Origin: a virus
Strand: one strand, 5' to 3'
DNA length: 60,355 bases
IMG/VR virus record: IMGVR_UViG_3300046791_000086
Span: 1-60,355 of that record
Part shown: in pieces, positions 1 to 60,355 of the stretch
Layout: every line of letters begins with the position of its first letter
How positions within the stretch are numbered: position 1 is the first letter of the stretch
The notes under the pieces: generated by a model
Seen by the model: the letters and a program-made list of their open reading frames with translations, nothing else
Told to the model about the DNA's origin: nothing
The model's database searches: none
Position numbers and translations under genes: made by a program

Positions 1-127
1 GACTGCAGCAGTGATCGGCGCGGGGGCGTTAGACGCCCGCACTGGAGCCTCAAACGTGGCCGCGATCTTGGCCAACGCCACCGCCTGGCGCACAGGAGAG
101 AGCTTGGCAACTTCCATCGCCTTTTCG
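1..127. repeat. Terminal direct repeat, left copy (identical to 60229..60355)
   Basis: The first 127 nt equal the last 127 nt of the window. This is typical of an assembly overlap closing a circular or terminally redundant genome (unique length 60,228 bp). Confidence 0.95.
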
Positions 128-741
128 GGGTCTTTGCTAAGGGCATGAATGATCTTCTCACCCACACCGGTCTCCAGCGCAGCCTCAATAAACTGCGGTG
201 TCATCGTGCCAAGCTGGTTCAGCATAGTGATGCTTTGAGTAAATTCCGGCCCGCCGAACTCCTTCTTACCTTTCTCTGCAACTTCATTGCAGCGGTTATT
301 GAAGGACTCCGTTGCGGCGATCTGCGCGGCCATAAGCTGCGCTTGGCGAGTCACAACGTCGGCTTGGATTTGCTCCGTCGCAGCGGGCGTGGTTGCGGGG
401 GGCTGACCAGCCGCAGGCTGCAGCGAAGCCAGTTGGGTCTGTAGACGCAGGAGTTCTGCCTGAAGCTGGTCCCCACGCTGCTTTTCAGCGTACCTCTGCG
501 CGGTGATTTCATTCACCCGCTTATCAAAGATTTCCGCTGGAACAGTAGCCTTGGACTCTGGTGGCTTTGTCTCAGGTAGCACCGGGGCCGCTGCTTCCGG
601 GGAGGGAGTCGGCGTCGGCCCCGGCGCCTCGGCAATAGGCTGCGCTACAGGTGGGGTCTCGCCGCCGCCGCCGGTCTCTGCTGCCAGCACAAGCCCAGGA
701 AAGAGGGTCTGCGCTGGGCTATATCCTTGGTTCTTGGTCAT
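1..741 (-). CDS. Scaffolding-like protein, N-terminal part (ORF leaves the left edge and continues at 60355..60115; 284 aa after circularisation)
   Basis: Absent from the ORF track because it has no stop inside the window. ATG at 741 with AAGGAG upstream. Own translation MTKNQGYSPAQTLFPGLVLAAETGGGGETPP...EIFDKRVNEITAQRYAEKQRGDQLQAELLRLQ is in frame with MEVAKL of ORF 60115..60345. Ala/Gln/Glu-rich helical protein upstream of the coat gene. Confidence 0.6.
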   Translation of the reverse strand, partial: MTKNQGYSPAQTLFPGLVLAAETGGGGETPPVAQPIAEAPGPTPTPSPEAAAPVLPETKPPESKATVPAEIFDKRVNEITAQRYAEKQRGDQLQAELLRLQTQLASLQPAAGQPPATTPAATEQIQADVVTRQAQLMAAQIAATESFNNRCNEVAEKGKKEFGGPEFTQSITMLNQLGTMTPQFIEAALETGVGEKIIHALSKDPEKAMEVAKLSPVRQAVALAKIAATFEAPVRASNAPAPITAAV

Positions 742-756
742 GGTCTCTTGGGCTCC

Positions 757-1092
757 TTACACGACTCTGCTGACAAACTGGTTATCTAGGCATAATGCCT
801 CATATATTTCATCCTTCAAAACGGGATCGCGAGTCTGCACAAGCAAATCCGTCAAGGTGGCCCGAGCCTGGGGGATGAGGTACGGCAGGGCCTTGCGGAC
901 ATACGCTCGCTGGGAAGGGTGCTGCTTACGAAAGGCATTACTTAGCCCCGCGCAGCGCTCGTAGATGGTATTGGCCATTTCCACAGCCACATTCATCACC
1001 ATCTTGTGGCACTGAGTCCGCTTTTCCATGCCGAAGGTCTTTTGCGGCAGGAAAAGACCCGGCGAGCGAAAGTCTTTCTGTGTGTAGGCCAT
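757..1092 (-). CDS. Hypothetical protein (111 aa)
   Basis: ORF track 757..1095. The ATG at 1092 overlaps the stop of the upstream gene (ATGA). Same strand as the head genes. No motif recognised. Confidence 0.55.
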   Translation of the reverse strand: MAYTQKDFRSPGLFLPQKTFGMEKRTQCHKMVMNVAVEMANTIYERCAGLSNAFRKQHPSQRAYVRKALPYLIPQARATLTDLLVQTRDPVLKDEIYEALCLDNQFVSRVV

Positions 1093-3632
1093 CACTTGGG
1101 CTCCTTCTGCATGAGGGCATTGCCAGACGTGCCACCGACTAAGAGGCCAGTCAGGCCGTACTTCTTAATCAGAGACAAAACGTCCGGGTTGAAGATGACA
1201 AAGTTCCTCGTCCGCTGGTCGAAAGGCTGACGAGTTTCGAGGAGATGAATGGCTTGCTCCAAGTGGTCGCCTGGAACATGATACTTTGGATCAAGGTTCT
1301 TCGTAGACTCAATCCGGTATTTCAGTTCCTTGATAGCTCGGCCTACATCTTCTCCCGCAGCGTCGTAGACTCGCGTAGCTGTGTCAAGAGGCTGATCTCC
1401 CTTGCCAACTTCTACACGTGAGCCCTGGTCAAGATACCTGAGCCCTGGGACTCCGGCATCTGCAAGACGCTGCATGTCAGAGGTCTCCCGTGGGGCGAGC
1501 CAACGGCCTTCGCGTGAGGCGACACTGGTAATATATTCAAGTTGTGATTGTGCCCATTCCCGGCTTGCAGGTGGAGCATTTTTTGCCATATCACGCAGGT
1601 AATCGAGATTACTAAGGCGCGGTGGGAGGTCTAAGCCAGCTTTATTAAGGGCCGGAAGTAAGTGCTCCTGACTACCAAGGGGTGCATCGTAATTAATGAA
1701 GGACTTGGGGTCTGCATGAAGGCCAAATTCATACAACTTGCCTTTGCTCTCTACCTTTGGCGCAGCGGCGTGGAGCTTATCTATAGCCTTGTTGAAGTCA
1801 ATCATCGCATTATTACCGGAGACTGAGTATCTAGCTCTATCTACTGCGGTGTGGAAGTCCTCCTTGTTATCTTGCATATGGCTGAGAATTTTGTTGGCAA
1901 AATGTTTTTCCAAGCTATTATCAAAATCCATCTGATCGAGCAGATCTTCAAAATGACCAGTCTGGGCTCTGCCGTTTATAGTCATGGTTGTGTTCGCAGG
2001 AGATAGGGTTCTTTTATACTCTTCTGCAACCTTTCGCTCCTGAGCAGTGTAGAAGCCCTTTCCAAAGGCCGCACCGCCCTCGCCAGTGCCAATCTTGCCC
2101 AAGTCCACGGCGTCAAAATCATGTGGCGAGCCGTGCCAAAGGCTCCCAAACGGGGCCTCGCCAGTGCTAAGCCGCTGCTCTTGACTCGGCCCTGGCCCTG
2201 CGGGGCCAATGTCTCCGGTGCCAGTGTTGTCAGTAAAGACCTCCTCCGGTGGCCGACGCCCGCGGAAGAGTTCATTATCCACCATCTGAAGCTGCGGCGC
2301 GACCCGTTCTGTGAGCCAGGGGTACTTGAGCAGGGCTTGGATTTTGGCGTATTCAGGATTATCAGGCTCAAGATTCGCGAGCCTGCGTTGCAGCGCCAGC
2401 CGGTCCATGGCATTATTGGCCTCGGCCTCTCCCGCGCTCCGTGTATAGCCAAGCTCACCAACAGCCAAGCGCATTCCTTCAACTACGCTCTTCGGAACGC
2501 CAGTCTGTCGATAACCCGCAGCAAGATTCTCGTGCATTTGCCAAGCGGTAGAAGCACGCTGTTTTTCCAAGTCGCTTAGTTGTCCGAAGGGCTTATGGAA
2601 TTTTTCCTCCGCATAGACCTCATACGGCATGGACTCTGTAACAGCATTCATCTTCTCGGTGAAGAGCTTCTGGGCACTTGGGCGCAAGCTCGTAGGCGCG
2701 GCGCCCCCCGCAAAGCCCTCGACGTTCTGGACAGTGTGGCCGACTTCATGAATGGCTGTTGGCAAGCCACTTGCCGTGCCCAGCGTCATTGGGTTGTATG
2801 TGTTCCAGTTACGGCCAGGGTTAAAAGCACCACCGGGGCCTAGTTTATAAGTCAGAGGTATATCTTTTAGCTCCGGGTAGGCTTTGAAAAGCGCATCGTG
2901 CTCAATATAATCCCCAAGCGTCTTAGGCGCAGAATTGGGCATAAGAACGTCTTTTTTGTCTCCAGAGATCGTAGACTGCACAACAGAGTAGTTCTGCGGA
3001 ATTGGCTTCTTTATCTTCGCCCCTTCGTCAGAAATCTCAAACTGCCATGCGGGCTTCGGCTGCTGGTCCCGTGGCAAGCCGAAGGATTCCAGCTGCCGGT
3101 TCTGGATCACCGGGAAGAGCCCCGTCTGGTCGAAGATGTCCTTTACTGGCGCACCCTTCGCCCACATATCATTCGCTAGGGGCTCCATATGGTGCGGATA
3201 AGTGTCTGCCAGCTTGCCGCCAAACGTCCCCCGCTCGTCCATCATCAGCGCGTTGCCAAGGGTCCGAAGCTCAGGCATGGCCTCAGCAATAGGCTTCGCC
3301 GCCCCCGGAACGGCGGAAAGGAGCGTTTGCAAAGCCGCATCGCGGGCGGCAGGCATGTCTCCTTCGCCAAGGCGGGTTATAACGTCCTTTGCATGGAAGG
3401 GGGCCTGTGCGACCACGGCGGGCGTGTAGGACAACGTATTGACAAGGCGGTCAGCCTTGGCCTGTCCCGCGCGGTCATCCCCATACCAGTTCGCTGAGAG
3501 CCAGTTTTTAGCCTGTTCCAGCGCGTCAGGCGTATAAGGCCGCAAGGAGCCAGGGTCTCTGTACTGCGCCCCCGCGAAGAGCCCATTAGGCGGGCTCGGC
3601 GCTTCCCATGGAAACTGAAGAGTGCTGCCCAC
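1092..3632 (-). CDS. Head-module polyvalent protein: HExxH metallopeptidase-like centre plus ADP-ribosyltransferase-like C-terminal region
   Basis: 846-aa ORF with a GTG start overlapping the upstream stop, two genes after portal. AIHEVGHTVQNVEGFAGG (HEVGH at 2736..2750) then YTRSAGEAEANNA. Later WHGSPHDFD..GKGFYTAQERKVAEEY, GVPGLRYLD and NFVIFNPD resemble modules of phage/plasmid polyvalent proteins (recalled, not searched). Confidence 0.55.
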   Translation of the reverse strand: MGSTLQFPWEAPSPPNGLFAGAQYRDPGSLRPYTPDALEQAKNWLSANWYGDDRAGQAKADRLVNTLSYTPAVVAQAPFHAKDVITRLGEGDMPAARDAALQTLLSAVPGAAKPIAEAMPELRTLGNALMMDERGTFGGKLADTYPHHMEPLANDMWAKGAPVKDIFDQTGLFPVIQNRQLESFGLPRDQQPKPAWQFEISDEGAKIKKPIPQNYSVVQSTISGDKKDVLMPNSAPKTLGDYIEHDALFKAYPELKDIPLTYKLGPGGAFNPGRNWNTYNPMTLGTASGLPTAIHEVGHTVQNVEGFAGGAAPTSLRPSAQKLFTEKMNAVTESMPYEVYAEEKFHKPFGQLSDLEKQRASTAWQMHENLAAGYRQTGVPKSVVEGMRLAVGELGYTRSAGEAEANNAMDRLALQRRLANLEPDNPEYAKIQALLKYPWLTERVAPQLQMVDNELFRGRRPPEEVFTDNTGTGDIGPAGPGPSQEQRLSTGEAPFGSLWHGSPHDFDAVDLGKIGTGEGGAAFGKGFYTAQERKVAEEYKRTLSPANTTMTINGRAQTGHFEDLLDQMDFDNSLEKHFANKILSHMQDNKEDFHTAVDRARYSVSGNNAMIDFNKAIDKLHAAAPKVESKGKLYEFGLHADPKSFINYDAPLGSQEHLLPALNKAGLDLPPRLSNLDYLRDMAKNAPPASREWAQSQLEYITSVASREGRWLAPRETSDMQRLADAGVPGLRYLDQGSRVEVGKGDQPLDTATRVYDAAGEDVGRAIKELKYRIESTKNLDPKYHVPGDHLEQAIHLLETRQPFDQRTRNFVIFNPDVLSLIKKYGLTGLLVGGTSGNALMQKEPK

Positions 3633-4066
3633 TAGAAGAAGCCCCCTGTGAACAGCCCGCCAGCACCGGCCCCTGCACCACCTCCGTGCATCATCTGGAT
3701 CATAGCCATAAGCCGAGCAAAGCCCTCAGAGTTTTGCTGCGGCATTAGAGAATTAGTGCCAGAACTCGGCGTGGGGTTTGCCAAGGTGGAAGGCGGCTGG
3801 GCTTGCGGTGGGGTGAAGCCGGTGAAGCGAGTGGGATCGTTAGGGTCGCTTTGGATGAGTTGGTTGTCTCCACCACCAGCACCTTGGCCCCGCTGGCTTT
3901 GCCATTGCTTCATTATGTTCATCAGCCCAAGGCTCGTCCGCATATCCGGCCCCATATACGCGAAGCCGCCGCCAGGAAACTGGTCGCCGTATTTTGGCAT
4001 ACCATAGCCGAAGTCTCCCATGGTCTGGGGGATAAACATTGAGCCACCGCTGTTCGGCATGTCCAT
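3632..4066 (-). CDS. Hypothetical Gly/Met/Gln/Pro-rich head-module protein (144 aa)
   Basis: ORF track. Begins 13 nt after the portal stop with AAGGA upstream. Low-complexity composition. Confidence 0.55.
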   Translation of the reverse strand: MDMPNSGGSMFIPQTMGDFGYGMPKYGDQFPGGGFAYMGPDMRTSLGLMNIMKQWQSQRGQGAGGGDNQLIQSDPNDPTRFTGFTPPQAQPPSTLANPTPSSGTNSLMPQQNSEGFARLMAMIQMMHGGGAGAGAGGLFTGGFF

Positions 4067-4078
4067 GGGAGTCTGTCC

Positions 4079-6226
4079 TTATCCGTTAAACCGAGTGCCG
4101 ATCATGCCACCGTTAGGCGCGAGCGGGCGCTGCGTAGCCAAGTCCCCGGCCAAGGCCGGGATGCCAGACTGCGCGATAGTGTCCGGAGCAGTAGCCTTGG
4201 CCAACTGCGCGGGCTCTTGCATCATGTCCGCGACCAACTGTATAAACGCCAGCTTGAGTTCTTGCGCACTCTGGCCGGAGTCCAGCAGGACCTTGATCCG
4301 GTCTGTATAAGCGCCGTAGCTGTCTACGCCAGTCTTGCCCTGCTGACGCAGGATTTGAGCCTGGGAGACCACAAGCTGGTCCATGAGAGCCTGGATTGTG
4401 CCCTGCATGTTCTGGACCTGTTGAGTAAGCTGCTTTTCGTTGTCTGTAGGCCCGGTGCCGAGCGCCGCTGGGGGCACCATGCGCTTCATGCGTTCCGCCG
4501 CCTCGTCGGCAAGGGGGAAGTCCGCCGCGCGCAGCAATATATCCCCGACAATGGCTGTCAAGGCTGGGTTCTGCGCCAGCATCACACTAAGCGCGTTGAA
4601 TGCTTCCTGACGCTGCGTTCCGTAGCCTGGGCCAATATCCGCTTGTACCTCGTAATACCCAACATTTGGATTAAGGAAGCGGGCTTGTGGCTGACCATCA
4701 GCCCCAGTTTGTTCAGAATACGCCTCTTTCGCATTGGGATCAACTTGAAGCTCCTGGGTTGTAGCGTCTTGGCCGAGGATCATAATTGTGCGCTTCGTGT
4801 CATAGATCGTTGGGATCATGCCAAGTATGATCTTGCCGGTGTACTTGACGCCTATTGCCAGGCCGTTGATGTAGTGATAAGTCGCGTTGTCGCCTTGGCG
4901 CTGGCGGGCATTGATCGCCGCGCCCGTGCGCTCGTTGCCCTGCTGGCCCATTTGGTTATCATACTGGCCAGAGACCAGCATCATTTCCATTTGCGAGACT
5001 TTCATGCCATCCAAGGCCACCGGGGCAGACATTGGCGGCGTGACCCGTATGGGAGGGTCCAGCTTCTGGCCATTATCATCATAAGCGTTGTAGGGCAAGA
5101 ACGCCAAGTTTTCAGTATTTGCCTTAGCCCAGACATCCTCATAGCCTTCCATCGCGCCCGCCGCCGCGACCCAGGGAGTCTTGGTCTGCAAAGCCCCGTA
5201 CTCGACACTGGCTGAGGACCAGTAATTATACATGCGCTGGGGGTCTTTCAGCGCGCGGGTGTGAGATTTACGGTCTAGCACGCCTTCAATGCGGATTTCC
5301 TCGCCTGTGATCTGCACTACAGGCACGTAGCGGCCTGGGACGACTTTTGTGTCTAAGACGCTGTGGCCGACGATCAAAAACCACTCAACCTTGGGGTTAA
5401 GAGTCGGTCTCGTCATCACATCTGGGTTCTCATCCATCATCTTCTGAGCTTCTTCGCTCAGTTCTGACTTCTTCATCACCGCGCCCTGCGGAGTGCGGTA
5501 GAGCGTGTCCGGCTCCCAGGTGCGGCGGTAGTATTCACAGACCATCACATCGTCCCCAGCGAGAAACGGGCTCTCCGGGTTCAGGCCGAGCGTGGCAGAG
5601 CCATCCGAGTCTTGGTACTGGGGGAATTTGGCCTTTACAGTGTCTTTGGATTTCGTCTCGAAGAGAAAAGCGTAGTTCATGTCGCTTTTATCAGGCTCCC
5701 GCGCATCGGGGTCGATGTAGACCGTGAGCGGGTCAGCGATATGCTTGATGCGGATGTCCTGGTCAAAGGACATTTCATTGCAGTATTCCGTCATCACCCT
5801 CCAATACCCAACCCCGCCGCTGACGCAGAAGTTCATCGCGGAGTCATAAATGTCCTGCGCAGCGGAGTGGTATTCAATATACCGCATGATACCGGCAAAG
5901 CTCTGAGCGCTGGAATACGTGCTGCCGCCGCCCGTGGGGCGCACAGCGATGCCAGGCTTGTTTTGCCGCGCATCGTTGACGATCTGGAGGTTGTGCTGGC
6001 GAGTTTTGTTAATGGTCAGGTACGGCTTGCCGTCGTTCTTGCGCGAAGTAACAAGCTGCTGTTCCCACTGCCAGTGGTTGTCAGAGTCGCCGTTGGCAAA
6101 GCGCAGATCATTCAAAAACCTGACTCTTGCCTGGCTCTCAAACTGATCGCAGCGAGCGAAGCGCTCTTCAGCTTCTTTGAAGAAGTCCGCCTTGGCGTCC
6201 CGCATCTTGGGGTCTACCGCATCCAT
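4079..6226 (-). CDS. Portal protein
   Basis: 715-aa ORF overlapping the 3' end of the large terminase gene, with AGGAG 7 nt upstream. Size, position and N-terminal region (DLRFANGDSDNHWQWE, QNKPGIAVRP, GGVGYWRV) fit P22/T7-type portals. Confidence 0.85.
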   Translation of the reverse strand: MDAVDPKMRDAKADFFKEAEERFARCDQFESQARVRFLNDLRFANGDSDNHWQWEQQLVTSRKNDGKPYLTINKTRQHNLQIVNDARQNKPGIAVRPTGGGSTYSSAQSFAGIMRYIEYHSAAQDIYDSAMNFCVSGGVGYWRVMTEYCNEMSFDQDIRIKHIADPLTVYIDPDAREPDKSDMNYAFLFETKSKDTVKAKFPQYQDSDGSATLGLNPESPFLAGDDVMVCEYYRRTWEPDTLYRTPQGAVMKKSELSEEAQKMMDENPDVMTRPTLNPKVEWFLIVGHSVLDTKVVPGRYVPVVQITGEEIRIEGVLDRKSHTRALKDPQRMYNYWSSASVEYGALQTKTPWVAAAGAMEGYEDVWAKANTENLAFLPYNAYDDNGQKLDPPIRVTPPMSAPVALDGMKVSQMEMMLVSGQYDNQMGQQGNERTGAAINARQRQGDNATYHYINGLAIGVKYTGKIILGMIPTIYDTKRTIMILGQDATTQELQVDPNAKEAYSEQTGADGQPQARFLNPNVGYYEVQADIGPGYGTQRQEAFNALSVMLAQNPALTAIVGDILLRAADFPLADEAAERMKRMVPPAALGTGPTDNEKQLTQQVQNMQGTIQALMDQLVVSQAQILRQQGKTGVDSYGAYTDRIKVLLDSGQSAQELKLAFIQLVADMMQEPAQLAKATAPDTIAQSGIPALAGDLATQRPLAPNGGMIGTRFNG

Positions 6227-7581
6227 CCTGTGTCTCCTAGAGAAGATGCCAAAGCGCGGCCCAGGTTACGTATCTTCCCGCTGGCGGCTTCAACGAGCGA
6301 AGTGTTAAGATTGGGGTTCCGAGGCTCTTTACTAGCCACAGCGCTGTAGCGGAAAGCGTCCGCGCCGTGAGAGTATTGGTCATGCACTGGGTCTTCGGAC
6401 AAGCGCCCAGTGTTGTCATTTTTCTCATACCTGTAGTGCATTAGGCACTGAAGCCCATCGCGGCACGCGGCTTGGTCGAACCAGGAGTTAGGAAAGACCG
6501 TCCGCGCGGCGTTAATGCCATCGTAGACCCGGAGATTAGGCACAATTCGAGTCCTATAGCCTTTGGCCATGATCTGCTCTCTAACAGAGAGCTTAGTTCC
6601 AACAGTCTTGGACTTGGCGTCATGCGGAAGCCAGACCGTCCCGTAGATGTAACCCATATTCTGCATGTAGGCGAGGTAATGGTCGATGTGGAACTGGGAG
6701 GCCTCGTAGTAGTTAATATACCGGAACTGGAAGTTCGCGTACTGCCTAAACCACATGCTTGTACTATCGGCATGGCCAAGGTCAAAAAATACGTCCACAG
6801 GGAGTTTTCTGTCATAGGGAACCCGACAAATGCGCTCCTCCGCATCAGCGTCCCGAAGTTCTTTAGCGTAGACCGCTCCTTCGAGCATCTTGCGGCATTT
6901 GCCTTCCCAAACCCAGAGGTAAGCATCCAAGTCATTGCGCTTAAGCTCCTCCATTTCGGCCCGAAGGACATCTGGAAACCAGGGGTTATCCCGCCAAGTT
7001 ATGTAAACCACATCACTATTATCACGAGGATGCACCACAAAATGCTGGTAAGTGTAATCAATCTCCAGTTCAGGGTTAAAGCTGATCCAGATTTCACTCG
7101 CTGGCTTACGAATGGTAGGAATGAGTATATTCCAGGAAGTCTTGGTGACTTTGTTAGCTTCTTCCACCCAGCAGATGTCAAAGTCCTCATAGCTTTTGAT
7201 TTTGTCCGTGTTATTGCGGATACCCGCGAATTGAAACTCGCCACCAGTGGCTTTGCAGCGGATTTCGGTGTTGAGTATGTCAAAGAGCCCGGAAAGGCCC
7301 ATTTTTTCAATCTGGCTGGACAAAAGCTTGTGCACAGACTCGGAGATTGAGTTCTGCAACTCTCTGGCGCAGAGCACCCGGAGGGGTTTTTGCAGCATTT
7401 GCAAAATCAGCGCCCGCGCATAGCCCCAGCTCTTCGCGCCGCCCCTGCCGCCGTAGGCGACCTTGTATCTCTTCGCGGAGAACAAAAACTGGAGCTTTGG
7501 CGGAAAGTCCGCGTTCACAGTAAGCGCACCGGGGGCAAGGAGGGAATTATTCATGGAAGATGCTGTCCCAAAGCCGGACAA
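6214..7581 (-). CDS. terL: Terminase large subunit (PBSX/Terminase_3-like)
   Basis: 455 aa. Walker A-like YGGRGGAKSWG. Downstream ICWVEEA and WISFNPE are typical of this family. Start uncertain (TTG 7581 or ATG 7554). Confidence 0.9.
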   Translation of the reverse strand: MSGFGTASSMNNSLLAPGALTVNADFPPKLQFLFSAKRYKVAYGGRGGAKSWGYARALILQMLQKPLRVLCARELQNSISESVHKLLSSQIEKMGLSGLFDILNTEIRCKATGGEFQFAGIRNNTDKIKSYEDFDICWVEEANKVTKTSWNILIPTIRKPASEIWISFNPELEIDYTYQHFVVHPRDNSDVVYITWRDNPWFPDVLRAEMEELKRNDLDAYLWVWEGKCRKMLEGAVYAKELRDADAEERICRVPYDRKLPVDVFFDLGHADSTSMWFRQYANFQFRYINYYEASQFHIDHYLAYMQNMGYIYGTVWLPHDAKSKTVGTKLSVREQIMAKGYRTRIVPNLRVYDGINAARTVFPNSWFDQAACRDGLQCLMHYRYEKNDNTGRLSEDPVHDQYSHGADAFRYSAVASKEPRNPNLNTSLVEAASGKIRNLGRALASSLGDTGWMR

Positions 7582-29209: not shown

Positions 29210-29244
29210 CACCGGCAGGACAATGTACTGCGTACCTGCCGGTG
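29210..29244 (+). other. 10-bp perfect stem-loop upstream of the ParB-methyltransferase gene
   Basis: CACCGGCAGG (29210..29219) / CCTGCCGGTG (29235..29244) with a 15-nt loop. No T-run. A smaller GGGCC..GGCCC hairpin plus TTT lies at 29183..29202. Confidence 0.5.
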
Positions 29245-29271
29245 CCTCCAGACCAAGCAAAGGACTCCAAG

Positions 29272-30657
29272 ATGAACGAATTTGTTTCTATTCTCCCGAA
29301 CAAATACAAGCGGCTGCTTTGCACCCAGATCTTCATTCCGCGCCACACTCGGCAGCGGTCGGAGATAGATACGATTGATATTGACGCCAGCATCAAGGCT
29401 CGTGGCGTCCTACAGCCAATCATTGTCCGCCCCAGCACCGGGGACGAAACCGACTTGCCATGGACTATAGTAGCCGGCGAACGCCGGCTATCCTCTTCCT
29501 TGAAGCTCGGTATCCCCGACATCCCAGCAAGGCTTGGCGACGAGCTCTCCAACCTGGAGTGGGAGCTGATTGAACTGGAAGAAAACGTCAAGCGCATGGA
29601 CCTGCCGTGGCAGGATGAAGTAAAGGCCATGCTAAGACTGCACACTTTGCTCGAAGTCAAGTCCCCTGACTGGACCATGACCCAGAGCGCAGAGTACATT
29701 GGCGTGGACCAGTCCACCGTCTCCCGGATGATCCGAGTGGCCCAAGAAATCAACAACCCCCGGATCGCCGGGGCTGAAGGCTATCGCCCGGCGTACAATA
29801 TCCTCATCCGGCTGGACGAGCGCCGCAATACAGACATCATCAACTCTATAGTCGAAGCTGGGGCAACGGCATTTCAGCCAAGCAGCCCCCCGACCGTGGT
29901 TCTTCCAAAGGCTCATCCCGATGACCCAGACCCCGAACCCATTCCAGTCACAGCGCCAGTCCAAAGCATTCTTAATGAGGACTTCCTCGTTTGGGCTCCA
30001 GCCTACGCAGGGCCGAAGTTTAATTTTCTGCACATGGACCCTCCCTACGGCATCGAGGTCTTTGGGGGAAATATGTCTGGCCGGAAAGCTCATGACACCT
30101 ATTCAGACGAAGCAGACGTCTACTGGCGCATCCTTGGCTGTCTTTGCGATAACCTTGACACCTTAATGACTCCTTCCTCGCACTTCATGCTCTGGTTCTC
30201 AATGGAGCACTACAGCAAAACCCTGGAGTTTTTCCGTGAGCGCGCACCGAGTCTTGATTTTTCCCCCTTCCCACTCATCTGGACTAAGAGCGATAACGTC
30301 GGCATACTGCCAGACCCCAAACGAGGCCCGCGAAGGATATACGAGACGGCGCTCATCGCAACGCGCTCTGACCATCTCATCGTCAGGCCAGTCAGCAACA
30401 GCTATGCTGCGCCTACGGATAAGACCTATCACCCCAGCACCAAGCCCGAACCCATGCTCAGGTACTTCTTCCAGATGTTTGTGGACGAAAGTACTCGTCT
30501 GCTTGATCCTACCTGTGGAAGTGGTTCTGCTCTACGCGCTGCTGAAAGTTTGGGTGCGAAGGAGGTATTGGGGCTGGAGCGTGATCCAAAGCATTTTGAA
30601 GCGGCTAACATCGCGCTTCGTTCGTTTAGAAATCTGAGAAGAGCAACAGGAGTATAA
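29272..30657 (+). CDS. ParB-like nuclease domain fused to a beta-class DNA N6/N4 methyltransferase
   Basis: N-terminus GVLQPIIVRP...WTIVAGERRLSS (ParB N-terminal domain). Then LHMDPPYGI (motif IV) followed later by LLDPTCGSGSALRAAE (motif I). ATG at 29272 chosen over GTG at 29242. Confidence 0.85.
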   Translation: MNEFVSILPNKYKRLLCTQIFIPRHTRQRSEIDTIDIDASIKARGVLQPIIVRPSTGDETDLPWTIVAGERRLSSSLKLGIPDIPARLGDELSNLEWELIELEENVKRMDLPWQDEVKAMLRLHTLLEVKSPDWTMTQSAEYIGVDQSTVSRMIRVAQEINNPRIAGAEGYRPAYNILIRLDERRNTDIINSIVEAGATAFQPSSPPTVVLPKAHPDDPDPEPIPVTAPVQSILNEDFLVWAPAYAGPKFNFLHMDPPYGIEVFGGNMSGRKAHDTYSDEADVYWRILGCLCDNLDTLMTPSSHFMLWFSMEHYSKTLEFFRERAPSLDFSPFPLIWTKSDNVGILPDPKRGPRRIYETALIATRSDHLIVRPVSNSYAAPTDKTYHPSTKPEPMLRYFFQMFVDESTRLLDPTCGSGSALRAAESLGAKEVLGLERDPKHFEAANIALRSFRNLRRATGV

Positions 30658-31230: not shown

Positions 31231-31550
31231 GAGACAAGAACCGTACCGGGGACTCGCGCTACAAACCGCCGCGAGTCCCAGACACCACCACCCAGGCAGT
31301 CATAGCAATGACCTTAGACTACTATGCTCCAAAGGAAATCGCCCAGCAGCTGGGCATCTCCTATGGCATGGTCAGAGTCATTCTCACCCGCGCTCGCGCC
31401 GACGGCAAGCTTCGGCGCTATATATCTGGGGGAATACGCATCTCTGGCGACGCCTTCGCGGTGCTCCGCAAGAAGGCCCAAGAGCTGACGCTCCCGGTGG
31501 AAATCTACATCTTGGAGTACCTAAAGCATGTCAAACATACTAAGCTCTAA
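31227..31550 (+). CDS. Small HTH protein (sigma70 region-4 / LuxR-like)
   Basis: GTG start overlapping the upstream stop. PKEIAQQLGISYGMVRVILTRARADGKL is a clear HTH. Confidence 0.5.
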   Translation: MRDKNRTGDSRYKPPRVPDTTTQAVIAMTLDYYAPKEIAQQLGISYGMVRVILTRARADGKLRRYISGGIRISGDAFAVLRKKAQELTLPVEIYILEYLKHVKHTKL

Positions 31551-32674
31551 TGCCTGAACCCTTTGCACATACCTCTGGCTCTCGGACCCCCAAGCTTATG
31601 CTCATTGGCGAGGCTTGGGGTGAGGACGAGGACAAAGAGAAGAAGCCCTTTGTAGGGTATTCTGGCAAGGAACTCTTTCGCCTCCTGGGCGAAGCCACTG
31701 GCCATGACCCCAAGTCCCACGCCTGGGTCTGCCAATGTATGAACTCTACCTTGTGGGTAAAAGAGCGTGAGGACTGGCTAGAGTCCGCAGGGATTCTCCT
31801 TACCAATGTCTTTTGCTCCCGCCCACCCAACAACAAGATCGAAGCATACCTCGGCCCCGAGGCTGAGGCTTTGCCAGCTCGCCCGGCGTTCCAGCGGGGC
31901 AAGTTTTTCCGCAGGGAGTTTGCTTCCGAACTCGAACGGCTTAACATTGAGATCGGACTCGCCCGGCCAAATCTTATCGTTTGCCTTGGCAATACGGCCC
32001 TGTGGGCGGTCCTTGGGAATAGCGGTATCTCGGCCCTACGGGGGGCGGTGGCGGCATCCATCACGCCCCCCGGCCTCAAGGTGCTGCCCGCATTCCACCC
32101 GGCCTACATCATGCGCCAATGGGCGCACCGACCGATCCTACTGGCCGACCTGATAAAAGCCTGGCGTGAGAAAGACTTCCCTGAACTCGTCCGGCCTAGA
32201 CGCGAGATACTTGTCAAGCCCAGCCTCTTCGAGGCAACCATCTGGGCCAACAAGAACCTTGGCCACAGGCTCATGTCTGTAGACATCGAGACCAAGAACA
32301 AGCAGATAACCGACATCGGCTTTGCTACCAGCCGAAGCTATGCCATGGTCATGACTTTCCGCGACACCTCCAAGCCGGGGAATTTATTCTACCAAGACGA
32401 AGCCGAGGAAATCCTGGCTTGGAAACTCGTGCGCCGTATCTTGGAAGGCCCCAATCCCAAGCTCTTCCAGAACGGCTTGTATGACTTGCAGTACCTCGCC
32501 CGCATGGGCCTGAGACCCAAGAACTGCATGGAAGATACCATGCTCCTGCATCATAGTCTCTTCCCGGAGATGCAAAAGAGCCTGGGCTTTATGGGCAGCA
32601 TCTATACCAATGAAGTCGCGTGGAAAATCATGCGCCACAGGGCGCGAGACGAAGTGGAGAAGGCAGATGAATAA
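31550..32674 (+). CDS. DNA polymerase A, part 1: family-4 UDG-like domain plus 3'-5' exonuclease motifs Exo I and Exo II
   Basis: LIGEAWGEDEDKEKKPFVGYSGKEL (GEAWG at 31607..31621) and FHPAYIMR (UDG-like). SVDIETKN (Exo I). FQNGLYDLQYL...EDTML (Exo II region). Confidence 0.8.
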   Translation: MPEPFAHTSGSRTPKLMLIGEAWGEDEDKEKKPFVGYSGKELFRLLGEATGHDPKSHAWVCQCMNSTLWVKEREDWLESAGILLTNVFCSRPPNNKIEAYLGPEAEALPARPAFQRGKFFRREFASELERLNIEIGLARPNLIVCLGNTALWAVLGNSGISALRGAVAASITPPGLKVLPAFHPAYIMRQWAHRPILLADLIKAWREKDFPELVRPRREILVKPSLFEATIWANKNLGHRLMSVDIETKNKQITDIGFATSRSYAMVMTFRDTSKPGNLFYQDEAEEILAWKLVRRILEGPNPKLFQNGLYDLQYLARMGLRPKNCMEDTMLLHHSLFPEMQKSLGFMGSIYTNEVAWKIMRHRARDEVEKADE

Positions 32675-33202: not shown

Positions 33203-34669
33203 TTGCCACTGATTCAAACGGCTGACCTTCGCCCCGGCGAACCGACACCCCACCAGCACCAAGTCTACAACGGGCTGGATTGCTGTCTTACCTTGGAAAT
33301 CTTTGAAGAGATCTCCAAGACCCATAACTATATCCCCGAGGTCTACACCTTCGCCCGCGCCATGCAAGGCCCAGCCTTGGAAATGATGTTGCGAGGGTTT
33401 CTTATTGACCAAGAGGCTAGAGAGAAAGCCATCCTGCGGCTCAAGGACTTGATCGCCAAGTACGATGTCGCCTTGCAGCGTCTGGCCGCGGTGGTCTGGG
33501 GCAAGTCCCTGAACCCGCGCAGCACCAAGCAGCTTCTTGAGTTCTTCTACTCTAGAATGCGGCTGCCAGAGCAATGGATAAGTCAAAAAGGCGTAAAGAA
33601 GCTCTCCATGAACCGCGAAGTCCTGGAGAAGTTGGAAGTCTATATGTACCCCCGACCAATTATCAGCTGCATCTTGTCCATAAGAGACCTGGCCAAAGAA
33701 CTCCAGACCCTGGAGTCTGAAGTCGATCCAGACGGCAGGATGCGGACCTCGTACAACATCGTCGGCACGGAGACAGGGCGTTGGAGCAGTAGCCAATCCT
33801 CTGAAGGCACTGGCCTCAACGCCCAGAACATCAAGCGCAAGCTGCGCAGCATCTTCATTGCGGACCCCGGCTGGAAGCTCTGCGGCATTGACCTAGAACA
33901 AGCCGAAAGCCGCGAAGTTGGCTGGCTATGCGGCACACTCTTTGGTGATTGGAGCTATCTTGATGCGTGTTTATCTGGTGATCTGCACACTCTCACTTGT
34001 CGCCTCATATGGGATAAATTACCATGGACTGGCGAGCTTAAACAAGACAGGAAAATTGCCGAGCAAATTTTCTACCGTGAGTTTACCTATCGTGATATGT
34101 CTAAACGCGGTGGGCACGGCAGCAATTATTACGGAACTCCTTTCACAATGGCTCGGCACCTGAAAGTCCCACAGAAGCTAATGATAGACTTTCAAGCCAA
34201 ATACTTCACCGCCTTCCCAGGTATACAAAAGTGGCACCGCTGGGTTGCCCAAGAGATCCAAACCACTCGCACTCTAACCACGGTCTTTGGCCGCGAGCGC
34301 ACGTTCTTTGGCCGCGCAAACGACGACACCACGCTCCGCGAAGCCATCGCCTACGCGCCGCAGTCCTCCACTGGCGACCGCCTTAACCTCGCCCTCTGGC
34401 GCATATGGCACAACATGAAAAACGTCCGCCTCTGCGCCCAGGTTCATGACGCGGTTTACTTCCAGTACCCGGAGTCTGCCGATGAGGCCCAGATCATTAG
34501 CCAAGCCCTTGGTTACATCTCCACCCCTCTTCACGACCCCAAGTCTGGGCGAAGCTATAACGTCCCCGGCGAGGCCAAGGTCGGCTGGAACTGGGGAGAC
34601 TTTGACAAAACTTCTAATCCGCTTGGGCTCTCTAAGTGGCGTGGCACAGATGACAGAAAAAGGCTTTAG
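33203..34669 (+). CDS. DNA polymerase A, part 2: Exo III motif plus polymerase domain
   Basis: VYNGLDCCLTLEI (Exo III YxxxD). CGIDLEQAESRE (motif A). MSKRGGHGSNYYG (motif B). AQVHDAV (motif C). The only upstream in-frame start is TTG at 33203, with no SD. Confidence 0.85.
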   Translation: MPLIQTADLRPGEPTPHQHQVYNGLDCCLTLEIFEEISKTHNYIPEVYTFARAMQGPALEMMLRGFLIDQEAREKAILRLKDLIAKYDVALQRLAAVVWGKSLNPRSTKQLLEFFYSRMRLPEQWISQKGVKKLSMNREVLEKLEVYMYPRPIISCILSIRDLAKELQTLESEVDPDGRMRTSYNIVGTETGRWSSSQSSEGTGLNAQNIKRKLRSIFIADPGWKLCGIDLEQAESREVGWLCGTLFGDWSYLDACLSGDLHTLTCRLIWDKLPWTGELKQDRKIAEQIFYREFTYRDMSKRGGHGSNYYGTPFTMARHLKVPQKLMIDFQAKYFTAFPGIQKWHRWVAQEIQTTRTLTTVFGRERTFFGRANDDTTLREAIAYAPQSSTGDRLNLALWRIWHNMKNVRLCAQVHDAVYFQYPESADEAQIISQALGYISTPLHDPKSGRSYNVPGEAKVGWNWGDFDKTSNPLGLSKWRGTDDRKRL

Positions 34670-59713: not shown

Positions 59714-59789
59714 TGGAGTCTCCAAAGGGCCGTAGCCCGGTTTTTGGCGTGATTGCCACTTTTCTCATCGCCAGAGGCAAGACTTTTTA

Positions 59790-59869: not shown

Positions 59870-60118
59870 TTAGGCAGCACCGTGGGCCTCATTCCTCGGG
59901 AATGGTGGGCTTTGGACTGCAAATTCATCGCCTGGCTCAGACATAAATATCGGAACCAGTTCTACCAGCAGATTTTCACTCCCAGTGAAATCTGCCACAT
60001 GCGTAAGCCGAGGCTTTGCCCCACCCACTTCCCAACGGCGCAGCCGCTTAGACCCAAAGTCTACCGAGCACAGCGCACTGTAGACGGTCTGGAAGGGAGA
60101 GGGGCAAAGAGCATTCAT
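59870..60118 (-). CDS. Doubtful small ORF (82 aa) between the scaffold and coat genes
   Basis: ORF track. The ATG overlaps the scaffold stop (ATGA), but the composition is not clearly protein-like. Confidence 0.3.
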   Translation of the reverse strand: MNALCPSPFQTVYSALCSVDFGSKRLRRWEVGGAKPRLTHVADFTGSENLLVELVPIFMSEPGDEFAVQSPPFPRNEAHGAA

Positions 60119-60355
60119 CTTCCGCGGGCCTTGTGCTTAGCGGCCAGCTCTGCGTTCCGTGCCGCCATCCAGTCTTTGATGCTGGAGTTCGGGTTGCGCA
60201 GGGCACTTGGCGCTGCACCGTCCCCAGAGACTGCAGCAGTGATCGGCGCGGGGGCGTTAGACGCCCGCACTGGAGCCTCAAACGTGGCCGCGATCTTGGC
60301 CAACGCCACCGCCTGGCGCACAGGAGAGAGCTTGGCAACTTCCATCGCCTTTTCG
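60115..60355 (-). CDS. Scaffolding-like protein, C-terminal part (continuation of 1..741)
   Basis: Track ORF 60115..60345. Its upstream part lies in the terminal repeat and is in frame with the ORF starting at 741. Confidence 0.6.
   Translation of the reverse strand, partial: EKAMEVAKLSPVRQAVALAKIAATFEAPVRASNAPAPITAAVSGDGAAPSALRNPNSSIKDWMAARNAELAAKHKARGR
60229..60355. repeat. Terminal direct repeat, right copy (identical to 1..127)
   Basis: Direct comparison with bases 1..127. Confidence 0.95.

What the first reader, a model, noticed from the sequence alone, without database searches (positions are those of the whole stretch)
1092..3632. Portal-adjacent 846-aa polyvalent protein combining an HExxH peptidase-like module with an ART-like module
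The gene sits in the head-morphogenesis slot downstream of the portal, where head-packaged, host-injected proteins are often found. It contains AIHEVGHTVQNVEGFAGG followed by YTRSAGEAEANNA. After a Gly/Pro linker it contains WHGSPHDFDAVD..IGTGEGGAAFGKGFYTAQERKVAEEY, LYEFGLHADP, GVPGLRYLDQGSR and NFVIFNPDVLSL. From memory these strings resemble the metallopeptidase and ADP-ribosyltransferase-type modules described in the large polyvalent proteins of phages and conjugative elements. If packaged and ejected, this would be an effector delivered with the DNA, either anti-defence or host takeover.
Basis: partly seen in the sequence, partly recalled or inferred. Interest (0 to 1): 0.65.

Follow-up and report, generated by a model that had tools for sequence, protein, structure and literature searches.

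The report
Phage head-module peptidase–ADP-ribosyltransferase fusion protein
This phage gene, sitting between the portal and scaffold genes, fuses a zinc-peptidase-like module to an ADP-ribosyltransferase-like module; it belongs to a predicted, never biochemically tested class of effectors thought to be packed into the phage head and delivered with the DNA, so it is a good example rather than a new kind.

Summary
ORF 1092-3632(-) encodes an 846-aa protein (817-846 aa, depending on the start codon) and every quoted motif is present. It lies in the head module of a complete ~60.2-kb podovirus-like genome, in the order TerL, P22-type portal, 144-aa ORF, this gene, 112-aa ORF, scaffold, coat.

The protein has four parts:
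- a lineage-specific N-terminus (residues 1-135);
- an LPD23 + HExxH zincin-like unit (~136-441);
- a disordered Gly/Pro linker (462-497);
- an ART-PolyVal-like domain (498-836).

The window protein scores below Pfam's cut-offs for every one of these families, but homology through relatives is strong:
- 26 of 29 close C-terminal homologues hit ART-PolyVal, and 61 of 61 N-terminal homologues hit LPD23.
- A profile of the ART beta1-beta2 core finds almost only PARP10/12/14/15, tankyrases and cholix toxin in the PDB.
- The N-terminal profile aligns to the HExxH region of IrrE.
- All family-invariant residues are kept (H295/E296/H299/E402; H500/Y528/D735).

Foldseek against the PDB found nothing significant for either model.

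A clear homologue of the ART module, Sulfitobacter phage PhiGT1 gp5, sits in the same slot and was detected in purified virions by mass spectrometry. The same two-module architecture recurs in about 18 metagenomic clusters.

Verdict: a new member of a known, predicted kind (polyvalent, virion-borne effectors). Interest is moderate.

The parts
1092..3632 (-). Whole gene: 846-aa (817-846) LPD23-zincin-ART fusion protein
   Evidence: ORF. Identical protein in the public collection, from a 60,355-bp contig. Start context TAGTG with AGGGGG upstream.
3228..3632 (-). Residues 1-135: lineage-specific, mostly helical N-terminal region; candidate capsid-incorporation segment (inferred)
   Evidence: Conserved only in the syntenic relatives P0002, P0040, P0041 and P0188. 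Low pLDDT. No Pfam or PHROG hit.
3027..3227 (-). Residues 136-202: LPD23 domain, split by a 16-aa insertion relative to canonical copies
   Evidence: Pfam LPD23 E=1.2e-5, 25.4 bits vs cut-off 27. 61/61 homologues hit LPD23. Invariant T170, G171, E199, I200 and D202 are kept. pLDDT >90.
2310..2939 (-). Residues 232-441: zincin-like metallopeptidase core (three-stranded sheet 259-285, HExxH helix 290-305, Glu helix 400-420)
   Evidence: AF2 topology with pLDDT >90. Invariant H295, E296, H299, G310, G401, E402 and R411. PHROG 13543 E=1.9e-6. Profile aligns to IrrE 'TLAHEISHA'. Homologues hit DUF6782, M78 and PhageMetallopep.
2736..2750 (-). HEVGH (H295-E296-x-x-H299), proposed zinc-binding/catalytic motif
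   Evidence: Invariant in 61/61 aligned homologues.
2418..2435 (-). AGEAEA (residues 400-405; E402 invariant, E404 nearly invariant): proposed third zinc ligand on the second helix
   Evidence: Alignment A3. Lies in helix 400-420 of the model. HExxH..EGF is followed by [AST]GE.[ED]A in 97/127 copies.
2142..2249 (-). Residues 462-497: disordered Gly/Pro-rich linker; candidate processing site (inferred)
   Evidence: pLDDT <50 for 464-490. Composition. It marks the boundary where N-terminal-only relatives end.
1125..2141 (-). Residues 498-836: ART-PolyVal-like ADP-ribosyltransferase domain with large helical inserts
   Evidence: Homologues down to E=2e-23, 27/34 with precomputed PF18760. 26/29 hit ART-PolyVal. 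All invariant columns kept. 21 BFVD fold matches to phage ART-PolyVal/polyvalent proteins. Core profile hits PARPs and cholix toxin.
2133..2135 (-). H500, candidate NAD-site His (strand 1, 'WHGSP')
   Evidence: Invariant. Aligns to the His of 'YHGT' in PARP10.
2049..2051 (-). Y528, candidate NAD-site Tyr (strand 2, 'GFYTA')
   Evidence: Invariant. Aligns to the Tyr of 'GVYFA' in PARP10.
1428..1430 (-). D735 ('RYLDQGSR'), most likely the acidic residue of the H-Y-D triad (inferred); E635 ('LYEF', 1728-1730) is the alternative
   Evidence: D735 is invariant and E635 nearly invariant. Motif alignment with compact ART-PolyVal copies, 'IVRGLDG' vs 'IRYLDQ'. H-Y-D is the family's configuration per PMC5512222.
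1215..1415 (-). Residues 740-806: helical insert between 'RYLDQGSR' and strand 'NFVIF'; a variable loop in the family
   Evidence: The motif start-to-start spacing is 17 aa in 66/140 copies and 55-90 aa in the others; in the window it is 80 by the same measure, G730 to N810. Helices in the AF2 model.
757..1095 (-). 112-aa conserved downstream partner gene
   Evidence: 57-61% identical to the genes directly downstream of P0002 and P0040. Absent where the module is absent.
3632..4066 (-). 144-aa Gly/Met/Gln-rich ORF between the portal and the gene, translationally coupled to it
   Evidence: ORF. No family hit. Overlapping stop/start.
4079..6226 (-). P22-type portal protein (context)
   Evidence: Pfam P22_portal E=4.6e-149.
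1..741 (-). Scaffold-like protein (284 aa), continuing across the circular junction at 60115-60228 (context)
   Evidence: Reconstructed across the 127-bp terminal repeat. Homologous to the scaffold-position genes of L001, PAE2 and phiAX1.

Best explanation
The gene encodes an accessory, late-expressed head-module protein of a P22-portal-type podovirus. A few copies are incorporated into the capsid and delivered to the host with the DNA.

It carries two enzymes. The first is an LPD23 + HExxH zincin-like metallopeptidase (H295/E296/H299 plus E402/E404). The second, after a disordered Gly/Pro linker, is an H-Y-D-type ADP-ribosyltransferase of the ART-PolyVal kind (H500, Y528, probably D735).

The proposed mechanism has three steps:
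1. The N-terminal part brings the protein into the procapsid.
2. After ejection, the ART domain uses NAD+ to mono-ADP-ribosylate a host macromolecule, most likely a protein, to aid take-over or to blunt defence. This parallels T4 Alt.
3. The peptidase either frees the ART by cutting at the linker or acts on host proteins itself.

Shown here: the ORF, the domain homologies, retention of all invariant residues, the gene position, and the accessory nature of the cassette. Shown by others for a homologue: presence in the virion. Inferred: packaging of this particular protein, ejection, NAD+-dependent activity, target, and self-processing.
For: Domain identity:
- The C-terminal family has E down to 2e-23, and 27/34 hits carry PF18760.
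- 26/29 members hit ART-PolyVal.
- There are 21 BFVD fold matches to phage ART-PolyVal/polyvalent proteins.
- With the beta1-beta2 core profile, 45/48 PDB hits are PARP10/12/14/15, tankyrases or cholix toxin, and the family's H and Y fall on their NAD-site H and Y.
- For the N-terminal unit, 61/61 homologues hit LPD23, 15 hit DUF6782 and 3 hit M78.
- The N-terminal profile aligns to the IrrE HExxH region.
- The AF2 model shows three strands, then the HExxH helix, then a Glu helix, at pLDDT >90. This is the zincin layout described in PMC5512222.

Catalytic residues: all invariant residues are kept.

Packaging:
- The gene lies between portal and scaffold on the same strand and is translationally coupled.
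- PhiGT1 gp5 is a family member (hhalign prob 100%, E=1.2e-49) in the same slot. It was detected in virions with 12 spectra and SC/MW 0.29, against 0.67 for the portal and a contamination level of <0.2.
- In Pseudomonas phage AF, the LPD23 module lies in a 2,213-aa protein just after the annotated internal virion proteins.
- A stand-alone ART in L004 sits among tail-fibre, large unknown and SLT genes.

Accessory nature:
- The portal-to-scaffold slot is empty in PAE2 and phiAX1.
- It holds the peptidase module without the ART in L001 and L002.

Literature model: packaged ARTs, polyvalent proteins and processing by metallopeptidases (PMC5512222; PMC9503650).
Against: - The window protein is below Pfam's gathering scores for LPD23 (25.4/27), ART-PolyVal (20.1/31.2) and DUF3990 (23.3/32.2).
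- Foldseek against the PDB found no significant match for either AF2 model: best E=0.29 for the C-terminal model and 2.0 for the N-terminal model. The ART fold and the zincin fold are therefore not confirmed structurally against solved proteins.
- The acidic catalytic residue is not pinned down. hhalign to the compact RPP1 domain is confident only over the first ~50 residues.
- Relatives carrying only the peptidase module in the same slot show that the peptidase's main job cannot be release of the ART.
- I found no biochemical study of any ART-PolyVal or LPD23 protein.
- Virion presence of PhiGT1 gp5 does not prove ejection, and gp5 lacks the peptidase module.
Confidence: 0.55

Rival explanations
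1. The two enzymes are independent effectors and there is no self-processing. The LPD23-zincin unit is the primary, ancestral effector: an IrrE/ImmA-like protease that cleaves a host regulator or defence protein after delivery. The ART is a later add-on that stays tethered to it.
For: - The peptidase-only genes P0002, P0040, P0041 and P0188 occupy the same slot with the same 112-aa partner.
- The best solved-structure matches are IrrE site-specific proteases.
- LPD23 is coupled to HExxH in 149/155 copies, so it behaves as one autonomous unit.
Against: - The IrrE match is weak (E=0.038) and limited to 45 residues.
- In giant polyvalent proteins the unit alternates with many ARTs. That pattern is what the processing model of PMC5512222 was built on.
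- No substrate is known.
Confidence: 0.25
2. The ART-fold domain does not modify proteins. It ADP-ribosylates nucleic acid (as DarT does), or it acts as an NADase or phosphotransferase, for example to destroy NAD+-derived defence signals.
For: - The ART superfamily includes DNA- and RNA-modifying and NAD-cleaving members (PMC9503650; PMC7955679).
- The third catalytic residue is unresolved.
- The large family-specific helical inserts could bind a non-protein substrate.
Against: - The core profile hits protein-modifying H-Y ARTs (PARP10/12/14/15, cholix toxin), not DarT or KptA.
- Iyer et al. place ART-PolyVal in Tox-ART-HYD2, near protein-modifying clades.
Confidence: 0.2
3. The protein is a morphogenetic or purely structural head component, for example an assembly or maturation protease or a portal-associated plug. 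It acts inside the producer cell or capsid and is not an injected effector.
For: - It is located between portal and scaffold, where prohead proteases lie in many phages.
- It has a conserved small partner gene.
- PhiGT1 gp5 is a virion component of unknown role.
Against: - The closest cultured phages by portal similarity (PAE2, phiAX1) go directly from portal to scaffold and coat without it, so it is not needed for this head type.
- The content of the slot varies between relatives.
- Both modules are typical of polyvalent effector proteins, including those of conjugative elements, which build no capsids.
Confidence: 0.1
4. One or both domains are catalytically dead remnants that serve only as scaffolds.
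For: The scores are below Pfam's cut-offs. There are large inserts, and G298 replaces the usual Gln inside HExxH.
Against: Every invariant column of both family alignments is retained. The inserts are shared by many family members.
Confidence: 0.05

Closest known systems
ART-PolyVal (Pfam PF18760; Tox-ART-HYD2 clade) domains of phage and conjugative-element polyvalent proteins. The prototype is Roseovarius Plymouth podovirus 1 vRNAP-like protein CBX87992.1 (Iyer et al. 2017).
   Same: - Shares the beta1 'YHG[ST]' and beta2 'G.[YF]F[AT]' core.
- Has a later conserved Asp and a terminal 'N.VVF' strand.
- Is phage-encoded.
- Is adjacent to a zincin peptidase in the same polypeptide. RPP1 has ART at 1023-1096 and M90/SprT-like at 1252-1387.
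   Different: - The window's domain is about 340 aa rather than about 130 aa, because of helical inserts between the core strands.
- The Pfam model aligns only positions 9-53 of 140, below its cut-off.
- There is no vRNAP.
- The protein has 3 domains, not more than 10.
Sulfitobacter phage PhiGT1 gp5 (QLB38217.1), an MS-detected 'head module' virion protein of unknown function (PMC10386132)
   Same: - Belongs to the same ART family (hhalign prob 100%, E=1.2e-49, 28% identity over 246 columns).
- Occupies the same slot between a P22-type portal and the scaffold.
   Different: - It is stand-alone (387 aa) with its own ~125-aa N-terminal leader and no LPD23-zincin module.
- It has the short 17-aa spacing between 'YRDAGSR' and 'NFVVF'.
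- It was not recognised as an ART by its authors.
T4 Alt (head-packaged, injected ADP-ribosyltransferase)
   Same: It is the functional model: an ART made late, packaged in the head and injected with the DNA to modify host RNAP and other proteins.
   Different: Alt is an R-S-E (Alt/VIP2 clade) ART, not H-Y-D. It comes from a myovirus and has a different incorporation mechanism. No homology was detected here.
MuF/SPP1 gp7 head-protein-toxin fusions
   Same: A portal-proximal head gene with a C-terminal enzymatic effector. N4-ART family domains are among the known cargoes.
   Different: No MuF domain was detected in the 846-aa protein (Pfam, PHROGs and NCBIfam). The N-terminal 135 residues are lineage-specific.
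Zincin-like MPTases of polyvalent proteins; IrrE/ImmA (Peptidase_M78) and DUF6782 families
   Same: A three-stranded sheet, an HExxH helix and a downstream Glu helix. The profile aligns to IrrE 'GAYDP...ILIN...TLAHEISHA'. Relatives hit DUF6782 and M78.
   Different: The window itself hits no peptidase model. It has a family-specific HExxHxxQxxEGF and an AGExEA signature, and an obligatory N-terminal LPD23 lobe. There is no HTH or GAF partner domains as in IrrE.
Pseudomonas phage AF AF_016 (2,213 aa; LPD22 + LPD23)
   Same: It contains the LPD23 + HExxH unit (27.5% identity over residues 196-414; LPD23 82.8 bits). It is encoded with the annotated internal virion proteins.
   Different: It is a giant T7-gp16-position protein with no ART module detected, in a different head lineage.

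Membership tests
ART-PolyVal (PF18760) / Tox-ART-HYD2 | Match to the Pfam model at or above its gathering score | tested here: not met
   Window: 17.9-20.1 bits vs 31.2, aligned only to model positions 9-53/140. However, 26/29 close homologues match at E<=0.01 (best 1.6e-14), and 27/34 carry the precomputed domain. I therefore file it as ART-PolyVal-like, a divergent insert-bearing subfamily, through homology to relatives.
ART-PolyVal (PF18760) / Tox-ART-HYD2 | His in strand 1 and Tyr in strand 2 (NAD site) | tested here: met
   H500 and Y528 are invariant. They lie in predicted strands 6-12 and 37-40 of the model. They align to the PARP10 'YHGT' His and 'GVYFA' Tyr.
ART-PolyVal (PF18760) / Tox-ART-HYD2 | Asp in strand 5 (H-Y-D triad, PMC5512222) | tested here: inconclusive
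   D735 is invariant and, by motif, corresponds to the Asp after strand 4 in compact copies. However, hhalign is not confident beyond the first ~50 residues, and no coordinates were available for superposition. E635 is an alternative.
ADP-ribosyltransferase superfamily (fold level) | Split beta-sheet ART fold superposable on a solved ART | tested here: inconclusive
   Foldseek vs the PDB gave no significant hit (best E=0.29, spurious 14-3-3). The model has six core strands separated by long helical inserts. BFVD gives 21 hits at E<=1e-3 to phage proteins named ART-PolyVal-like or polyvalent, including compact ones with TMt ~0.5.
ADP-ribosyltransferase superfamily (fold level) | NAD+-dependent ADP-ribose transfer | not testable with these tools
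   Needs biochemistry. I found no published assay for any ART-PolyVal member.
LPD23 (PF18838) | Match to the Pfam model at or above its gathering score, and the conserved TGW...W.FEI.D signature | tested here: inconclusive
   Window: 23.9-25.4 bits vs 27. Only model positions 2-39 align, because a 16-aa insertion splits the domain. The invariant T170, G171, E199, I200 and D202 are kept. 61/61 homologues hit LPD23.
Zincin-like metallopeptidase (MPTase of polyvalent proteins; M78/DUF6782-like) | HExxH on the first helix after a three-stranded sheet | tested here: met
   H295, E296 and H299 are invariant in 61 sequences. The AF2 model has strands 259-263, 268-270 and 282-285, then helix 290-305, at pLDDT >90. 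The profile aligns to the IrrE HEISH motif.
Zincin-like metallopeptidase (MPTase of polyvalent proteins; M78/DUF6782-like) | Glu on a second, downstream helix as third metal ligand | tested here: inconclusive
   E402 (invariant) and E404 lie in helix 400-420. E305 (EGF) is another conserved Glu. Which one binds metal cannot be decided without coordinates.
Zincin-like metallopeptidase (MPTase of polyvalent proteins; M78/DUF6782-like) | Significant match to a curated peptidase model or a solved zincin structure | tested here: not met
   The window hits no peptidase Pfam model. Foldseek vs the PDB gave nothing (best E=2.0). The IrrE profile hit is only E=0.038. Support comes through relatives: DUF6782 in 15, M78 in 3 and PhageMetallopep in 1 of 61.
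Polyvalent protein (Iyer et al. 2017) | Two to 15 effector-type domains in one polypeptide, encoded by a phage with a portal-terminase system or by a conjugative element | tested here: met
   LPD23, zincin and ART in one ORF, next to Terminase_3 and P22_portal genes. The same modules alternate in 2,000-7,000-aa proteins.
Virion-packaged, ejected effector | Detected in purified virions; delivered to the host | not testable with these tools
   Only indirect evidence: homologue PhiGT1 gp5 was found in virions by MS. Ejection has not been shown for any member.
MuF/gp7-toxin fusions | N-terminal MuF (SPP1 gp7) head domain | tested here: not met
   No MuF or related hit in Pfam, PHROGs or NCBIfam.

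The most novel reading that the evidence does not exclude
The insert-bearing ART family found here (the window's C-terminal domain, PhiGT1 gp5, and thousands of metagenomic relatives) could be a distinct, virion-borne branch of H-Y-D ARTs in P22-portal-type podoviruses. Its long, variable loop before the last strands would set target specificity. The LPD23 + HExxH unit could be a single, previously unrecognised zincin peptidase family that acts as an ejected site-specific protease (IrrE/ImmA-like) against host regulators or defence proteins, kept in check by the conserved 112-aa partner, rather than as a mere self-processing device. On this reading the portal-to-scaffold slot is a swappable cargo bay for injected enzymes.
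Probability: 0.3. Interest if true: 0.6.

Novelty: new member of a known kind. Interest (0 to 1): 0.4.

Why it matters
Packaged ARTs other than T4 Alt, and the peptidases of polyvalent proteins, are known only from computational prediction.

This locus is a compact, three-domain example in a small podovirus genome. It has natural comparison cases:
- relatives with the peptidase only;
- a cultured phage (PhiGT1) with the ART only, which is already detected in virions;
- close head lineages with an empty slot.

That combination makes the predictions directly testable: packaging, self-cleavage, NAD+-dependent modification, and the target.

Two annotation points follow:
- PhiGT1 gp5 can be annotated as ART-PolyVal-like.
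- Pfam LPD23 looks like the N-terminal lobe of a zincin peptidase.

Tried and rejected
- **Foldseek vs the PDB, C-terminal model.** No significant hits. The top hits (14-3-3, Dps) are driven by the helical inserts.
- **Foldseek vs the PDB, N-terminal model.** No significant hits.
- **HMM of the whole C-terminal alignment vs PDB sequences.** It returned only spurious coiled-coil hits (gp41, TRIM5). Trimming to the beta1-beta2 core (A4) was needed to see the ARTs.
- **hhalign of the family against the single compact RPP1 ART.** It is confident only over the H/Y region, so it could not place the acidic residue. A motif alignment with compact copies from giant proteins gave the D735 proposal.
- **Protein comparison with alignment ids.** It failed twice, so hhalign was run locally instead.
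- **Is the 474-aa gene next to P0040 in L002 a detached ART?** No: there is no similarity and no Pfam hit.
- **Is PhiGT1 gp4 the counterpart of the N-terminal module?** No: hhalign probability 0.1%.
- **Is PAE2 gene 3 the counterpart of the 112-aa partner?** No.
- **NCBIfam.** No hits for the gene or its two small neighbours.
- **tblastn against cultured phages.** Only 3 records matched the full protein, and 2 weak ones matched the ART half.
- **Other copies in the window.** No other ORF carries either module.
- **Immunity or reversal genes.** No macro/ARH-type gene turned up among the larger genes scanned, but small ORFs were not scanned exhaustively.

Full report
**1. The observation**

The window is a complete, circularly assembled phage genome. 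Its ends share a 127-bp direct repeat, leaving 60,228 bp of unique sequence. GC content is ~56% and there are no tRNA genes.

ORF 1092-3632 on the minus strand encodes 846 aa from a GTG. The GTG overlaps the TAG stop of the preceding 144-aa ORF (TAGTG), and AGGGGG lies about 10 nt upstream. A public gene call of the identical protein begins at TTG codon 30, giving 817 aa. Homologues have 13-21 residues before the first conserved block, so the long form is plausible, but the exact start is open.

On the minus strand the gene order is:
- large terminase 6214-7581 (Terminase_3);
- portal 4079-6226 (P22_portal, E=4.6e-149);
- a 144-aa ORF;
- the 846-aa gene;
- a 112-aa ORF at 757-1095;
- a 284-aa scaffold-like gene that crosses the junction;
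- major capsid protein 58499-59725;
- adaptor, head closure and tail genes.

So the gene is in the head module and near the portal, though not adjacent to it.

**2. Anatomy**

Direct profile scans of the window protein give only sub-threshold hits, but they point the same way:

| Model | Residues | E-value / score |
|---|---|---|
| LPD23 | 136-173 | 25.4 bits vs cut-off 27 |
| PHROG 13543 | 232-311 | E=1.9e-6 |
| DUF3990 | 498-544 | below cut-off |
| ART-PolyVal | 498-548 | 20.1 bits vs cut-off 31.2 |
| PARP | 515-593 | E=0.09 |

The protein is modular. P0002 (531 aa), P0040, P0041 and P0188 align only to residues ~25-461, at 37-49% identity. A separate set of proteins aligns only to 491-846.

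AF2 models were built with family alignments of 29 and 61 sequences. Both have mean pLDDT ~75-76.
- Residues 140-460 are confident, mostly above 90.
- Residues 1-135 are poorly predicted helices.
- Residues 464-490 are disordered.
- The C-terminal half has six core strands (C-terminal-domain numbering 6-12, 37-40, 142-148, 240-244, 319-323, 329-335) separated by long helical inserts.

**3. The C-terminal module**

A search with residues 491-846 returned 34 proteins with E down to 2e-23 in a 5.8-billion-sequence database. Of these, 27 carry a precomputed Pfam ART-PolyVal domain. When each member was scanned on its own, 26/29 hit ART-PolyVal (best 1.6e-14) and 8 hit DUF3990.

The alignment has 17 invariant columns, and the window protein keeps all of them: H500, S502, P503, F506, G517, G519, G526, Y528, A530, Y539, Y634, G727, G730, Y733, D735, S738 and R739. 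E635, N810, V812 and F814 are nearly invariant.

Iyer et al. define the ART of polyvalent proteins by His (strand 1), Tyr (strand 2) and Asp (strand 5), within the Tox-ART-HYD2 clade (PMC5512222).

A profile of only the beta1-beta2 core (alignment A4) was searched against PDB sequences.
- It returned 48 matches at E<=10.
- 45 of them are catalytic domains of PARP10/12/14/15, tankyrases or cholix toxin.
- The best is PARP10 at E=0.035.
- The family's His aligns to 'YHGT' and its Tyr to 'GVYFA'.

Each hit is marginal on its own, but the list is almost purely H-Y ARTs.

For the acidic residue I fetched the prototype the authors name, the RPP1 vRNAP-like protein CBX87992.1. I also took compact copies from giant proteins. 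These show 'GYDG.IVR' followed by a short Asp-containing loop and then '[END]..VV[FA]'. This lines up by motif with 'GVPGIRYLDQGSR...NYVVF', which makes D735 the likely third residue. This step is an inference, because profile alignment beyond the first ~50 residues is not confident.

The start-to-start spacing between the 'G[IL]RY.D' and 'NYVVF' motifs is 17 residues in 66/140 copies and 55-90 in the rest. In the window it is 80 by the same measure, G730 to N810. So this loop is a recurrent variable element.

Fold-level checks were mixed. Foldseek of the model against the PDB found nothing significant. Against BFVD it found 21 phage proteins at E<=1e-3, several named ART-PolyVal-like or polyvalent.

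**4. The N-terminal module**

A profile search returned 206 proteins at E<=1e-5, nearly all with Pfam LPD23. In a 61-sequence alignment the invariant columns are T170, G171, E199, I200, D202, H245, Y252, H295, E296, H299, G310, G401, E402 and R411. The signature reads HExxHxxQxxEGF...Y.R.AGExEA.

All 61 members hit LPD23. In addition, 15 hit DUF6782 (a putative metallopeptidase), 3 hit Peptidase_M78 and 1 hit PhageMetallopep.

The profile's only PDB matches below E=1 are two IrrE zinc peptidases (E=0.038 and 0.16). They align over 'G.Y.P...I.(I/L)...TL.HEI.HA'.

The AF2 model shows three strands (259-285), then the HExxH helix (290-305), then a later helix (400-420) carrying E402 and E404. This is the zincin layout described by Iyer et al.. 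Foldseek against the PDB again gave nothing significant.

The LPD23 motif W.FEI.D is followed by HExxH(3-8)E within 220 residues in 149/155 copies, at a median distance of 92 residues. LPD23 therefore looks like the N-terminal lobe of one ~300-aa peptidase unit. The sample was retrieved with profiles that cover both parts, so it is biased towards that result.

**5. How common it is**

The exhaustive search found 10,393 representative proteins at E<=1e-3. Of the 148 best, 32 contain both modules. About 18 of those are 640-880-aa proteins with the same order, peptidase then ART. Examples are P0044, P0083, P0088, P0092, P0104, P0147, P0171, P0178, P0180, P0181 and P0185. In 2,000-7,000-aa proteins the two modules alternate many times.

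The architecture is therefore recurrent. Among cultured phages, however, matches are few and weak.

**6. Context and packaging**

In related metagenomic phages the peptidase-only gene occupies the same place.
- L001: portal, P0002, a 102-aa gene, scaffold-like, coat.
- L002: portal, four small or unknown genes, P0040, a 117-aa gene, coat.

The small downstream gene is 57-61% identical across the three phages.

The closest cultured phages by portal similarity, PAE2 and phiAX1, go straight from portal to scaffold and coat and lack both genes. So the cassette is accessory and is not needed for building this kind of head.

Sulfitobacter phage PhiGT1 has the order portal, gp4, gp5, gp6, scaffold, major head protein.
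- gp5 is a clear member of the ART family: hhalign probability 100%, E=1.2e-49, and Pfam ART-PolyVal 30.0 bits vs 31.2.
- The PhiGT1 structural study detected gp5 in purified virions with 12 spectra and SC/MW 0.29.
- For comparison, the portal scored 0.67, and the authors regard values below 0.2 as possible contamination.
- The authors list gp5 only as 'head module' (PMC10386132 Table S3).

In Pseudomonas phage AF, the LPD23 + HExxH unit lies inside a 2,213-aa protein (LPD22 + LPD23). That protein is encoded right after the annotated internal virion proteins A and B and the structural lysozyme. A stand-alone ART in L004 lies between a tail fibre and two ~600-aa proteins plus an SLT transglycosylase.

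Iyer et al. (2017, 2022) had predicted that ARTs of this type near portal and terminase genes are head-packaged and injected, with T4 Alt as the model.

**7. Mechanism**

The best-supported reading is a late-made protein, incorporated into the capsid in low copy, that carries two enzymes into the host.

The ART (H500/Y528/D735) would mono-ADP-ribosylate a host macromolecule.

The zincin unit would either cut the flexible 462-497 linker to free the ART or act on host proteins. The first option is the processing role proposed for polyvalent proteins, with P1 DdrB as precedent. Because peptidase-only relatives keep the same slot and the same partner gene, release of the ART cannot be the peptidase's only role. 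I give self-processing about 0.3.

Packaging of this particular protein, ejection, activity and target are all inferred.

**8. Comparison and novelty**

The protein meets the definition of a polyvalent protein. It is ART-PolyVal-like and LPD23/zincin-like by homology through relatives and by retention of the defining residues. It fails the Pfam cut-offs on its own, and it lacks fold confirmation against solved structures.

It is not a MuF fusion, since no MuF domain is present. It is not an Alt-type (R-S-E) ART.

I rate it a new member of a known, computationally predicted kind. The additions made here are:
- the link to an MS-verified virion protein, PhiGT1 gp5;
- the accessory 'cargo slot' between portal and scaffold;
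- the conserved 112-aa partner;
- the LPD23-HExxH coupling.

Interest is 0.4.

Noticed in passing
window 1-127 and 60229-60355: An exact 127-bp direct repeat at the two ends shows the window is a complete circularly assembled genome (60,228 bp unique). The scaffold-like gene runs across the junction (741..1, then 60228..60115, minus strand).
   Followed up: yes
window 757-1095 (-): The 112-aa gene directly downstream is 57-61% identical in the two related phages, which is more conserved than the big gene itself. It is present only where the LPD23-zincin gene is present (3 of 3 phages with it, 0 of 3 without). It has no family hit. It could be a partner: a chaperone, inhibitor or adaptor.
   Followed up: partly
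window 3632-4066 (-): A 144-aa Gly/Met/Gln-rich, low-complexity ORF lies between the portal and the 846-aa gene. Its TAG stop overlaps the GTG start. It has no homologue in L001 at that place and no family hit.
   Followed up: partly
window 54706-55221 (-); L001 15726-16187: A GNAT acetyltransferase gene sits inside the tail module (Acetyltransf_1 E=3.3e-7), and L001 has a syntenic one. In other family members, GNAT domains are fused to the ART (P0026, P0047) or to LPD23 modules (P0262, P0290), so it may be a further virion-associated enzyme.
   Followed up: partly
window 49077-52505 (-): A 1,142-aa protein with an N-terminal Phage_lysozyme2 domain (E=2.7e-22) is a likely internal virion/ejection protein. 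The neighbouring large genes (555, 403, 1,105 and 448 aa) mostly have no family hit; the 1,105-aa one hits only DUF2793.
   Followed up: no
L009 4918-6081 (Sulfitobacter phage PhiGT1 gp5): A virion protein found by mass spectrometry and published only as 'head module' is an ART-PolyVal-like protein. This is, as far as I found, the only experimental virion evidence for this family.
   Followed up: yes
family-wide (proteins P0002-P0305): The Pfam LPD23 motif is followed by HExxH(3-8)E within 220 residues in 149 of 155 copies. LPD23 looks like the N-terminal lobe of one zincin peptidase unit rather than a free-standing domain. The sample is biased by how it was retrieved.
   Followed up: partly
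L002 5188-7995: In the related phage L002, the portal-to-peptidase interval holds four extra genes. Three of them (172, 162 and 116 aa) are paralogous to one another, and a 474-aa gene has no family hit. The slot behaves as a variable cargo region.
   Followed up: partly
window 29242-30657, 31550-32674, 33203-34669 (+): The replication module has a ParB_N + N6/N4 DNA methylase fusion. It also has a uracil-DNA-glycosylase-family domain fused to a 3'-5' exonuclease, encoded upstream of a separate family A polymerase gene.
   Followed up: no
L008 6865-13506 (Pseudomonas phage AF AF_016): This 2,213-aa 'hypothetical protein', at the position of the largest internal virion protein, carries LPD22 and LPD23 (+HExxH) domains. 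It is a polyvalent protein in a cultured podovirus.
   Followed up: partly
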